This document shows positions 34,893 to 37,800 of a DNA stretch of 64,000 nt, in pieces. The DNA lies in NCBI RefSeq assembly GCF_964355755.1, contig NC_092671.1:3162001-3226000 (forward strand), written 5' to 3'. A program made the translations under genes and the position numbers. Position 1 is the stretch's first letter; every line of letters begins with the position of its first letter. Below the pieces are notes generated by a model. That model was not told the DNA's origin. It saw only the letters and a list, made by a program, of their open reading frames with translations, and ran no database searches. The DNA is from Antedon mediterranea. Its lineage: Eukaryota; Animalia; Echinodermata.

Positions 34893-37800
34893 CTAACGTT
34901 TCAAGAGGAAAAAAATTATAATGTATTTCAGTTGGGACGGTTAAAACCATGCATGTAATTTAAAGGCACGCTCGACTGTGCGTGTAAAGGAATGTTATGT
35001 CATGCTCATTGACAATTTTATTATATACTATAAAATAAAAATATTGTACCTTGTTCAACTTTTTCTCTGGCAACATTATTTGGAAATCCTGGATAGGGTG
35101 TGCTACCCCGGGAAAATATCTCCCACAGCAAAATACCGTAACTCCACACATCACATGCTGATGTATAGGTTCCTAGAAGATAAAGTAAATTGATATGAAC
35201 AATGAGATAAAAATATATTACGGTAGAGGGTTCGCTCAATTAGGCATTCCTGCTCTTAACGAGTGCTCCAGTTGTAGATTAGACTTCCACGTTTTGATAT
35301 TAAATATTAAATTTGACCGTGACTATATAAACCAACCAGAATATTATACTGCATTAGAAACACTTGGCTGAGAAATACCATAGTTAAGAATCAAGCCTAA
35401 GTATTAAGTTTGGTTAAGAATTTCAAAAAAGAAATTTTGAATAAAATTAAGTGGCCAAGTTAATATCACTGAAGGGCATTTGGTTTATTTCTTAAAAATA
35501 TTATAAAATAATCATTTTTTTAAAATTGCTTCTTATTGTGTAGAGTAATAGGAACACACTATTGTACTGTCCAACCCATTCACGTACAAGCGGGAACCAA
35601 GCTTTAGGATTTGTTGAAGTAAATAAAATTCTGAATGTCTCTAAACCTCTGTCTACACTACCAAACTTTATGTGACAAAAAAATATGATGTGACCAAAAT
35701 ATGGACATGATGATGTCATATCACTACCATATTTAAGCACATCACTACCATAATTGGGTACATCACACTTTTTTGTCGAACTAGTTTGATAGTGTAGACA
35801 GAGCTTAAGCAAAAAAATTATTCTAATTCCCAAAACCTTAAATATTTTAGTGCCCAGTGTGAAAACATATTAAATGCATAAAGTCTTAAATAGTCTCTAC
35901 ATAAATTACAATATTAATAAACAGTTTTAAAATTAATGTAGAAAAATAAAAGATGTTTGTAAGGTGTGGAAATTTAGCTATTAGTAAAGGATAGAAATGT
36001 ATGAAAAAATATTCAATACAAAAATGGATAACTTAATAAAACGATTACTAAGAATTTTCAATGGGATAATGATTTGTCTATATTATATTGAAGTAGGACA
36101 AAAATGTATGCAAAAATGATTTAACAAAAAAATGAATAATTTGAATGAACAATTATTCAGCTACTAGGAATTCTAAATTAATGATTTTCAATATTATATG
36201 AATAAGGAAAGGATAAAAAATGTATGCCAAAATGATATTTTCATATTTGAAAAATGCCTTGAATAAAAATTGTATAAAGTAAAGTATTAAAAAAAAGATT
36301 ATTTTGAATAGAGATGATATTAAAAGGAATGGGTGAAAGAGCAATTTGTAATTTTTAAATGATTTACAGACAAATACCAGATTATGCAAATGAGATTTTA
36401 GTTGCTATAGCGAATGACATTTGAGCTGCTGCATTTTTTTTTCAGCCAATCAAATTGCTGATTGAAAATTGTTACCATAATTGAGAGCCTCAGGAGCGGT
36501 CCACTTAATAGGGACCTGTCTAGTATCACCCATCGTATACGTATTATCATCTTCAACTTCTCTCGACATGCCAAAATCGCTAATCTTAGTTACAATGTCA
36601 TGGCCACCTACGTGAACAAGACAATTTCTTGCCGCTAAATCTCTATTAAAATTAAAAGATTATCTTTAAGGAATAGATAGAATAAAGAATACTGTGTGGA
36701 TAGAATATGATACACAATATAATATATTGATTATCTTATGTGCCAAAAAAAAGGAAAACAAAAAACAGAAAAGAAACTTTCATTACAAACAAAGTGTTCA
36801 AATAGTTCATGACTACTATGGTAATTATTTTTTTATTTATCCAAATTGGTTGTATTTATTTGAGGACTGAAAAATACAACATATTTTATTGTGCATCATG
36901 TGACCTAGATCCCACAAAAACATGCCAGCTGGTAGGCTTGCCTCACCAGACACCTCCTTACCATAATTCATAGCCTCCGGTGCAGTCCATTTAATTGGGA
37001 TTTGTCTCATTGAACCACCCACTGAATACACGCCATCTTCCTCCTCTCGTGACATGCCAAAATCGCTGATTTTTACGACACTTTTGTCGCCCACTAGGCA
37101 ATTTCTGGCAGCTAAATCTCTGATGGAATGATAATAGTTAAGCTGAACATGCTAGTAATGGTGGGTGACCATTAGAGAGTTGTATTCATGATAATAATAA
37201 CATTACTATCAGTAAAGTGTAATACAGTTGGTACACCAATATGACTTATATTTATTATTACCCTGCCTGCCCACCGAAAAAAAAGCAATAATAGGTGTAA
37301 CGGTTGAGTAATGAAGAACATATAAGATCGCTAAAAGTTCCATTGAAGTCCTATTCATTAAGGGTATTCTTCAATTAGCCCTTGTGGAAACATCCTCTAA
37401 AATAGATATTAGAATCTATTTATTAGTATCGACTTAAAAGGCAACAGACCTAACACAATTCTACAAGCTTTACTAATTAACAAAGTTGCAATAAAGTTCT
37501 GTCTACACTATCAAACTTTATGTGACAAAAAATTGAGATGTGCCCATATATGAACATGACGACATCATATCACTACCATATTTAGGCATATCACTATCAT
37601 ATTTGGTCACATCACACATTTTTTGTCAACTTGTTTGATAGTGTAGACACAGATGTTTTTACATAATGTTTATACCTGTGGATGCAGTTTTTCTGTTCTA
37701 AGTACGCCATCCCAGCTGCTGCATTCTCACCCATGCGTAACATCACTTTTTGGTTTAAGTCATTCTTATCAGACCGTAAATAAGACAATAAATCACCACC

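What the first reader, a model, noticed from the sequence alone, without database searches (positions are those of the whole stretch)
36476..37119. Mutually exclusive duplicated exons that swap the activation loop of a FER/FES kinase
Seen: two tandem exons 319 nt apart, both phase 2-1 with AG/GT sites and no stops. A (158 nt) encodes [53 protein letters not shown] (167 nt) encodes [55 protein letters not shown]. Core kinase motifs are identical while many silent positions differ (GCT GCC/GCG GCA, TGC CTA GTG/TGT CTT GTT, TCA CGA GAG/TCG AGA GAA, ACT GCA CCG/ACC GCT CCT), the pattern of an old duplicate under purifying selection. Including both gives G|AG ATT TAG (stop at the third codon); skipping both frameshifts to a TGA within 8 codons. 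So exactly one must be used. Differences concentrate in a 3-aa insertion before the DFG strand and in the activation loop, where the Tyr moves one residue and sits in EDDNTYT instead of EDGVYS. Known: this Tyr is the FER Y714/FES Y713 autophosphorylation site, and the loop shapes regulation and substrate choice; B's context resembles Src (EDNEYT) and Abl (GDTYT) loops. Inference: one gene makes two kinases by an exon switch, possibly paralleling the vertebrate FER/FES split. I know of no report of this for FER/FES but cannot verify novelty.
Basis: partly seen in the sequence, partly recalled or inferred. Interest (0 to 1): 0.9.

Follow-up and report, generated by a model that had tools for sequence, protein, structure and literature searches.

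The report
Swappable activation-loop exons in crinoid FER
A feather-star gene for the FER/FES tyrosine kinase carries two old copies of the exon that encodes the enzyme's on-switch loop; each copy is spliced in on its own and both are kept in a second feather-star family, so one gene likely makes two differently tuned kinases.

Summary
Confirmed. Exons A (37119-36962) and B (36642-36476) are tandem AG/GT, phase 2-1 copies of the exon running from the catalytic loop through DFG to APE of the FER/FES kinase that NCBI names Antedon mediterranea Fer-like. Contigs of one RNA-like run join each exon alone to both flanking exons (short sides, 18-22 letters). Synonymous sites between A and B are saturated (pS about 0.75, pN 0.20-0.23). 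Anneissia japonica, of another family, has both forms in otherwise identical proteins: A 51/52 identical, B activation segment 35/37, with 10 of 11 B-specific positions kept. No B-type segment was seen outside these two crinoids. Functional difference is inferred, not tested. The mechanism is a known kind. The pair already sits in automated RefSeq isoforms, and I found no paper on it. The scan earlier noted a similar swap in crustacean PKC-delta, on other DNA.

The parts
36962..37119 (-). Exon A: conservative copy, catalytic-loop Asp to just after APE (52 codons plus split codons); FES-type register, loop Tyr 807 of the 917-aa isoform
   Evidence: joined to E-1 and E+1 in run X1 contigs; NCBI isoform X3 XP_071941842.1; 51/52 identical to Anneissia X2
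36476..36642 (-). Exon B: derived copy with a beta7-beta8 insertion and a different activation segment; loop Tyr 811 of the 920-aa isoform
   Evidence: one 211-nt contig carries E-1 end, all of B and E+1 start; NCBI isoform X2 XP_071941841.1; activation segment 35/37 identical to Anneissia X1/X3
36476..36607 (-). B' : 132-nt 3' part of B after an internal AG; in frame after exon A (+44 aa)
   Evidence: used in NCBI isoforms X1, X4, X5; no such joint listed in run X1; absent from the 3 Anneissia sequences
36643..36961 (-). Intron between A and B, 319 nt, GT-AG
   Evidence: no CTRAY motif and no duplex above shuffles
37676..37799 (-). Upstream shared exon E-1 (alphaD-alphaE to H-R of HRD), donor phase 2
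   Evidence: its 3' end is the loose sequence behind both A and B contigs
35050..35172 (-). Downstream shared exon E+1 (alphaF-alphaG; holds the Asn matching FES N766)
   Evidence: its 5' end is the loose sequence before both A and B contigs
34747..57611 (-). Whole FER/FES-type coding gene: N-terminal extension, FCH/F-BAR, SH2, tyrosine kinase
   Evidence: exon-by-exon tblastn of P0003/P0126 on the window; Pfam FCH, SH2, PK_Tyr_Ser-Thr

Best explanation
The FER/FES kinase gene of comatulid feather stars has two tandem copies of its activation-segment exon, each spliced on its own between the same flanking exons, giving two full-length kinases that differ only from the catalytic loop to the APE motif and are predicted to differ in how they switch on and in what they phosphorylate. 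Shown: duplication, splicing of each exon alone (one run), purifying selection, and conservation in two families. Inferred: A is the ancestral-type copy. B arose by tandem duplication, probably in the crinoid line before the Antedon/Anneissia split, then diverged and was fixed. B keeps the residues that bind the phosphotyrosine in FES (R682 and R706 equivalents) and the same DFG-to-Pro loop length. It moves the Tyr one place, changes 11 of 37 activation-segment positions and puts Asp-Thr just before the R-Q-V-P stretch. It is therefore likely an active kinase with altered autophosphorylation and loop stability, and a modest shift in peptide preference. The +1 determinant (FES N766) lies in a shared exon, so a wholesale change of specificity is unlikely. 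Exclusivity is likely kept by splice-site competition, with frameshifted both/neither products removed by nonsense-mediated decay; no RNA docking helix was found. Tissue- or stage-specific choice is expected from FYN-type cases and is untested.
For: Splicing: in run X1 a 211-nt contig covers B with loose ends equal to window 35150-35171 (E+1) and 37678-37696 (E-1); a 184-nt and a 48-nt contig do the same for A; each loose string occurs once in the 64-kb window; DNA run X4 shows no loose ends. X1 also holds a contig spliced over three upstream exons with 184-215 letters each. NCBI isoforms X2 (B) and X3 (A) are identical outside the segment, and so are Anneissia X1 (B) and X2 (A). Selection: pS about 0.75 against pN 0.20-0.23. 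Between families the B activation segment is 94.6% identical, like the shared kinase C-lobe (94.4%) and above the F-BAR/linker region (76.7%); 10 of 11 A/B differences are kept in Anneissia B (read). A groups with A (91/78) and B with B (98/94) across species. Role of this segment in FES: pY713 bonds to R682, R706, S716; the loop pairs with the alphaEF-alphaF loop and with the substrate peptide (PMC2572732, passages). The B isoform model matches FES structures best (TM 0.83-0.86 by target).
Against: No activity, phosphorylation or tissue data. The junction evidence is one run of one study, labelled RNA by guess, kept as contigs, with 18-22 loose letters per side, below the tool's 31-letter bar for a bridge. 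3 of 5 Antedon NCBI sequences include A and B' together, and their support could not be seen. Loop register varies widely within the family (Tyr mostly at DFG+8 to +11 among 158 distinct segments), so B's shift need not change function much. The B activation loop is low-confidence in the model (pLDDT under 50 at 799-813 and 815-819), and no A-only model was made as a control. The restriction to crinoids rests on annotated proteins, not on genome searches.
Confidence: 0.72

Rival explanations
1. Both exons are real and exclusive, but the two kinases are biochemically almost equivalent; B is kept because some cells splice only B, so it cannot be lost (partition of expression without a new function).
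For: Loop length and Tyr position vary across FER/FES orthologues; Nematostella FER has B's register; catalytic motifs are identical; the N766 equivalent is shared.
Against: 10 of 11 B-specific activation-segment residues are held between two families while the neighbouring insertion drifts. That fits selection on B's own sequence, though general loop constraint could also give it.
Confidence: 0.17
2. The exons are not strictly exclusive: an A+B' transcript using the internal AG at 36608 is a real third product, a kinase with a doubled, roughly 60-residue activation loop and two loop tyrosines.
For: In frame; modelled by NCBI as X1, X4, X5; the predicted fold keeps the kinase and leaves 803-860 disordered.
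Against: Run X1 lists no A-to-B joint, and the A and B contigs are unbroken at the places where such a branch would cut them (contigs drop rare forms). 0 of 3 Anneissia sequences have it, and the residues at the site differ there. The site's pyrimidine count (10/19) is lower than that of the four normal acceptors (11-14/19). A gene-prediction compromise is likelier.
Confidence: 0.1
3. The exon pair is much older than crinoids, and B was lost, or is unannotated, in other echinoderms and deuterostomes.
For: Synonymous saturation; B does not group with crinoid A in the 52-column tree; B ends A-L-N-Y like vertebrates and Nematostella, while A shares A-M-N-Y/F with other ambulacrarians and amphioxus.
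Against: B's placement has support 44/81, an open fork on long branches. B motifs occur in 7 of 601 stored proteins, all from the two crinoids. No second segment type within a species among the isoforms listed for sea stars, urchins, sea cucumbers, acorn worms, amphioxus, lampreys, a scallop, locusts and tsetse flies.
Confidence: 0.1
4. B is a decaying pseudo-exon or an assembly duplication.
For: None found.
Against: DNA contigs span the pair; B is spliced; low pN at saturated pS; conserved in Anneissia.
Confidence: 0.01

Closest known systems
FYN exon 7A/7B (FynB/FynT), tandem duplicated mutually exclusive exons in a Src-family tyrosine kinase (PMC9741552, passages)
   Same: Cytoplasmic tyrosine kinase; old tandem duplicate; two full-length isoforms that differ in a homologous block; there with tissue-specific use and different substrate handling.
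   Different: The FYN exons cover the SH2-kinase linker and the start of the N-lobe. Here the block is catalytic-loop end, DFG, activation loop, P+1 loop and APE. Tissue use here is unknown.
Human kinase-domain exon pairs in CAMK2D, MAPK8/9/10 (JNK) and MAPK14 (p38 alpha) (PMC8373072 supplement rows)
   Same: Mutually exclusive homologous exons inside a kinase catalytic domain.
   Different: They cover alphaE to HRD (CAMK2D), alphaF (JNKs) or alphaG (p38). Of 32 'DFG' hits in the file as held, the only one in the exon column was GCNT2, not a kinase; FER and FES have 0 whole-word hits.
NCBI RefSeq models: Antedon mediterranea Fer-like X1-X5 (XP_071941840-845) and Anneissia japonica Fer-like X1-X3 (XP_033105747-750)
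   Same: These are this gene and its orthologue; the A-only and B-only proteins are already deposited as predicted isoforms.
   Different: Automatic names only, with no comment on the swap; three Antedon models join A and B'.
Human FES SH2-kinase (PDB 3BKB/3CBL/3CD3; PMC2572732)
   Same: Domain order, best sequence and fold match; exon A has the same loop register (Tyr at DFG+10, Pro at +20).
   Different: One activation segment only; vertebrates have two paralogous genes, not two exons.
Crustacean PKC-delta duplicated catalytic-loop/activation-segment exon (earlier scan note e1-7682307, unchecked)
   Same: Reported as the same architecture: an activation-segment exon pair present in annotation and not discussed in papers.
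   Different: Ser/Thr AGC kinase, independent origin; an AI note that I did not test.

Membership tests
FER/FES tyrosine kinases | FCH/F-BAR, then SH2, then tyrosine kinase, no SH3 | tested here: met
   Pfam FCH 99-169, SH2 550-620, PK_Tyr_Ser-Thr 656-910; no other family at E <= 0.001
FER/FES tyrosine kinases | Closest solved relative is FES by sequence and fold | tested here: met
   phmmer 3BKB 1.7e-120 against ABL1 2.2e-84; Foldseek ranks 1-6 are FES
FER/FES tyrosine kinases | HRD, DFG, Arg at FES 706, loop Tyr and APE intact in both isoforms | tested here: met
FER/FES tyrosine kinases | Kinase activity and loop autophosphorylation of each isoform | not testable with these tools
   needs recombinant protein
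Tandem-duplicated mutually exclusive exons | Adjacent homologous exons with the same phases in one gene | tested here: met
   both phase 2-1, 37/52 residues identical
Tandem-duplicated mutually exclusive exons | Each exon spliced alone to the same flanking exons | tested here: met
   four junctions in run X1 contigs, sides 18-22 letters; A-only and B-only NCBI isoforms in two species
Tandem-duplicated mutually exclusive exons | The two exons are not included together | tested here: inconclusive
   no A-to-B joint in X1 contigs, but 3 of 5 Antedon NCBI sequences model A+B' and contigs drop rare forms
Tandem-duplicated mutually exclusive exons | Both copies under purifying selection and conserved across species | tested here: met
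   pS about 0.75, pN 0.20-0.23; 51/52 for A and 35/37 for B's activation segment against Anneissia
Tandem-duplicated mutually exclusive exons | Tissue- or stage-regulated choice | not testable with these tools
   only one RNA-like run, as contigs
Docking-site/selector RNA-structure control | Intron-intron or intron-exon helix stronger than chance | tested here: not met
   7 of 7 region pairs within the range of 10 shuffles (best -19.9 to -25.5 kcal/mol); the two repeat copies were left out; cross-species test not possible
Counterpart of the vertebrate FER versus FES split | One exon groups with FER and the other with FES | tested here: not met
   neither exon groups with FER or FES; 52 columns, low resolution

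The most novel reading that the evidence does not exclude
Feather stars switch the entire activation segment of a tyrosine kinase by exon choice, in a regulated, cell-type-specific way, and the B form has its own autophosphorylation behaviour and substrate set. This would be a natural single-variable test of how far the activation segment alone sets tyrosine-kinase regulation and specificity, and, with the PKC-delta case, a recurrent but undescribed route to kinase diversification. The boldest form adds a real A+B' kinase with a doubled loop (about 0.1).
Probability: 0.45. Interest if true: 0.7.

Novelty: new variant of a known kind. Interest (0 to 1): 0.52.

Why it matters
The activation segment holds the phospho-switch and part of the substrate-docking surface, and kinases normally diversify it by gene duplication. 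Here two versions, each conserved, plug into an identical F-BAR-SH2-kinase scaffold, so any biochemical difference can be assigned to about 15 residues. That makes a standing question, how much the loop alone sets activation and specificity in a tyrosine kinase, directly testable with two cDNAs. Limits: the splicing mechanism is a familiar kind, the isoforms are already in automated annotation, and the trait was seen only in two crinoids.

Tried and rejected
No whole genome is held for this window, so the rest of the genome and other crinoid genomes could not be searched. No RNA holder is on record; X1 is RNA by guess only. Contig depths in X1 (A 81, E-1/A junction 69.4, B 43.1, unspliced intron 10.9) were not used as an isoform ratio, and the missing X1 cover over 35830-36434 was not used as evidence. 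The first lay over 34300-39500 had its joint table swamped by a high-copy repeat. Search of 30-97-aa proteins with exon B: 166 hits of 183 candidates, best 65-70% identity, none B-type among the 120 listed. Two hits with doubled segments (sturgeon P0004, pseudoscorpion P0005) carry identical copies and look like model or assembly duplications; rejected as parallels. The 50%-cluster search added no B-type protein. Intron duplex scan: nothing above shuffles. Steric exclusion: the intron is 319 nt with no CTRAY near A's donor, so not favoured. Exon tree: only A-A, B-B and a few small groups are resolved; B's origin is not. AlphaFold models leave the loops at low confidence and say nothing on function. 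In one search the last exon was entered one base short (true start 34892); this affects only the printed tail. Literature: ten searches listed no paper on alternative activation-loop exons in FER/FES or on this crinoid gene. For some searches only 25 of 418 and 15 of 22 papers were listed, and most subscription papers are not covered. The Aplysia PKA paper named in scan note e1-7631376 was not found. No divergence date for Antedon versus Anneissia was found. Scan look-ups by sequence and place were empty.

Full report
What is there. The minus strand holds a multi-exon gene from 57611 to the stop at 34749-34747. Its product has FCH/F-BAR, SH2 and tyrosine-kinase domains and matches human FES best by sequence (1.7e-120) and by fold. 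The exon-B peptide is 100% identical to part of NCBI 'tyrosine-protein kinase Fer-like isoform X2 [Antedon mediterranea]', a feather star of the family Antedonidae. Between the shared exons E-1 (37799-37676) and E+1 (35172-35050) lie two homologous exons, A (37119-36962, 158 nt) and B (36642-36476, 167 nt). Both are AG/GT and phase 2-1, 319 nt apart. Each encodes the block from the catalytic Asp through beta7-beta8, DFG, the activation loop and the P+1 loop to just past APE.

Is it more than chance or artefact. A and B share 37 of 52 aligned residues, 17 of them with different codons. pS is 0.74-0.77, at saturation, and pN is 0.20-0.23 over five gap placements; where dS could be computed, dN/dS was 0.09. 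Overlapping contigs of DNA run X4 run through B, the intron and A. DNA runs X2, X3 and X5 cover each exon with its intron flanks. These four runs are one sample and may be the assembly's source.

Are both spliced. Five runs hold the stretch; none is on record as RNA and one, X1, is RNA by guess. X1 holds a contig spliced across three upstream exons with 184-215 letters on each, so it contains spliced sequence. On 35830-37470, 4 X1 contigs were laid. One of 211 nt covers all of B, with 22 loose letters on one side and 19 on the other. One of 184 nt covers A with the same 22 loose letters. One of 48 nt leaves A's 5' end with 18 loose letters. One is unspliced intron. The loose strings match the window once each, at 35150 (E+1) and 37678/37679 (E-1), exactly at the predicted junctions. 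The length 21+167+23 = 211 is what a 31-letter assembly graph gives for an in-frame E-1/B/E+1 path beside an A path (my arithmetic). DNA run X4 shows no loose ends. Caveats: one run, one study, contigs and not reads, and sides shorter than the tool's 31-letter bar for a bridge. Independent of this, NCBI lists an A-only (X3, 917 aa) and a B-only (X2, 920 aa) protein that are identical outside the segment; the evidence behind those models was not visible.

Exclusivity. Through the normal acceptor, A+B stops at the third codon, 159 nt before the next junction, and skipping both stops seven codons after the junction. Both would be decay targets under the usual 50-55 nt rule, which is recalled and not shown for echinoderms. 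Frame does not force exclusivity, however. AGs ending before 36640, 36634 and 36607 give in-frame A-plus-shortened-B, and 3 of the 5 Antedon sequences (X1, X4, X5) use the 36607 site, adding 44 residues. Against that form: X1 lists no A-to-B joint and its A and B contigs are unbroken where the branch would fall; 0 of 3 Anneissia sequences have it; the site's pyrimidine count is below that of the four normal acceptors. A model of that protein keeps the kinase fold and leaves residues 803-860 disordered. I rate it a probable prediction compromise, not excluded. No intron helix above shuffles was found in 7 of 7 region pairs.

Conservation. Anneissia japonica (Comatulidae) has both forms: X2 carries A, X1 and X3 carry B, and X1 and X2 are identical elsewhere. 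A is 51/52 identical between the species. B is 35/37 identical from K-I-S-D-F-G onward, about the level of the shared kinase C-lobe (84/89) and above the F-BAR/linker region (352/459). Its beta7-beta8 insertion is not conserved (12/18; three extra residues here, five there). A and B differ at 11 of 37 activation-segment positions, and Anneissia B keeps the B residue at 10 of them (read). In a 32-row, 52-column tree, B groups with B (98/94) and A with A (91/78); B's deeper place is unresolved. A is 43-44/52 identical to acorn-worm and amphioxus FER, B only 35-36/51, so A is the conservative copy. B-specific motifs occur in 7 of 601 proteins stored, all from the two crinoids. That set includes the cluster members listed for sea stars, urchins, sea cucumbers, acorn worms and amphioxus (9 non-crinoid clusters, 62 members) and for lampreys, a scallop, locusts and tsetse flies. 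This is a survey of annotated proteins, not of genomes.

How it likely works. In FES, phospho-Y713 bonds to R682, R706 and S716; the loop forms a sheet with the alphaEF-alphaF loop and another with the bound substrate; the +1 acidic preference is ascribed to N766 in alphaG (PMC2572732, passages read). A has FES's register, with Tyr at DFG+10 and Pro at +20. B keeps the loop length and both arginines, moves the Tyr to +11, and changes the residues between the Tyr and the R-Q-[IV]-P stretch. The N766 equivalent lies in shared exon E+1 (alignment). I infer two active kinases that differ in autophosphorylation and loop stability and modestly in peptide preference. Among 158 distinct segments in 387 stored proteins the Tyr sits mostly at +8 to +11, and Nematostella FER has B's register. 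B is thus unusual for a deuterostome but within the family's range, which keeps the near-equivalence rival alive. The B-isoform model has a normal kinase fold with a low-confidence loop and cannot decide this.

A parallel to FER versus FES is not supported: neither exon groups with either paralogue, and B is slightly nearer FES. B's closest solved sequences are FES, then EphA2 and EphB2, then the Src-Abl ancestor, so the Src/Abl likeness is not special.

What is known. Tandem exon duplication with exclusive splicing is common in animals (PMC3342872, passages). In kinases, FYN has such a pair over the linker and N-lobe, with tissue-specific use (PMC9741552, passages). In the human catalogue's supplement (PMC8373072; searched for terms, rows seen, not read whole, long cells cut) FER and FES have no entry; the kinase-domain cases seen are CAMK2D, MAPK8/9/10 and MAPK14; and none of the 32 'DFG' hits falls in a kinase's alternative exon. 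Passages of PMC12608923, PMC13079724 and PMC10065799 did not mention this feature. The other papers were seen as listings only. Ten searches listed nothing on this swap; the library lacks most subscription papers and bioRxiv supplements were closed, so invertebrate catalogues of exclusive exons may hold a parallel. The scan's own notes report a like arrangement in crustacean PKC-delta and exon pairs in an invertebrate PKA; these are unchecked leads.

Verdict. Real, expressed on present evidence, conserved across two comatulid families, and apparently undescribed outside automated isoform lists. It is a new variant of a known kind: the unusual point is which part of the kinase is swapped. The functional consequence is untested. 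Interest 0.52.

Noticed in passing
window 35641-35809 and 37492-37652: Two copies (83-87% alike) of a roughly 165-nt element with terminal inverted repeats flank the A/B pair, one in each outer intron; it has very high depth in all runs laid, so it is a high-copy MITE-like repeat. Its arms could pair across the two exons, but nothing shows a role.
   Followed up: partly
window 57369-57611, minus strand: An exon gives an 86-residue N-terminal extension before the F-BAR start. It is present in NCBI X1-X3, absent in X4, predicted mostly disordered, and has a clear counterpart in Anneissia X1/X2: a probable alternative first exon.
   Followed up: no
Apostichopus japonicus Fer-like X2 and X3 (P0274, P0272): Two sea-cucumber isoform models leave the kinase right after this same exon into a short different tail, so the donor of this exon is also a point of alternative splicing there.
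   Followed up: no
proteins P0302 and P0321 (unnamed JGI and Logan ORFs, 61 and 63 aa): Single-exon FER-like ORFs whose loop start resembles B (Val-Glu-Asp, then Tyr-Thr-Met); P0302 is 37/50 identical to B and 34/51 to A. Organism unknown; convergence or a distant B-like exon.
   Followed up: partly
window 61979-62755, plus strand: Large exon of an F-box protein (Pfam F-box-like 7e-14) followed by leucine-rich-repeat-like exons; neighbouring gene, divergent from the kinase.
   Followed up: no
window 35940-35970 and 36445: Intron indel polymorphisms downstream of B: a 31-nt skip in DNA run X4 and a 12-nt deletion at 36445 in X2 and X3; X3 shows a T-to-C difference at 37023 inside exon A.
   Followed up: no
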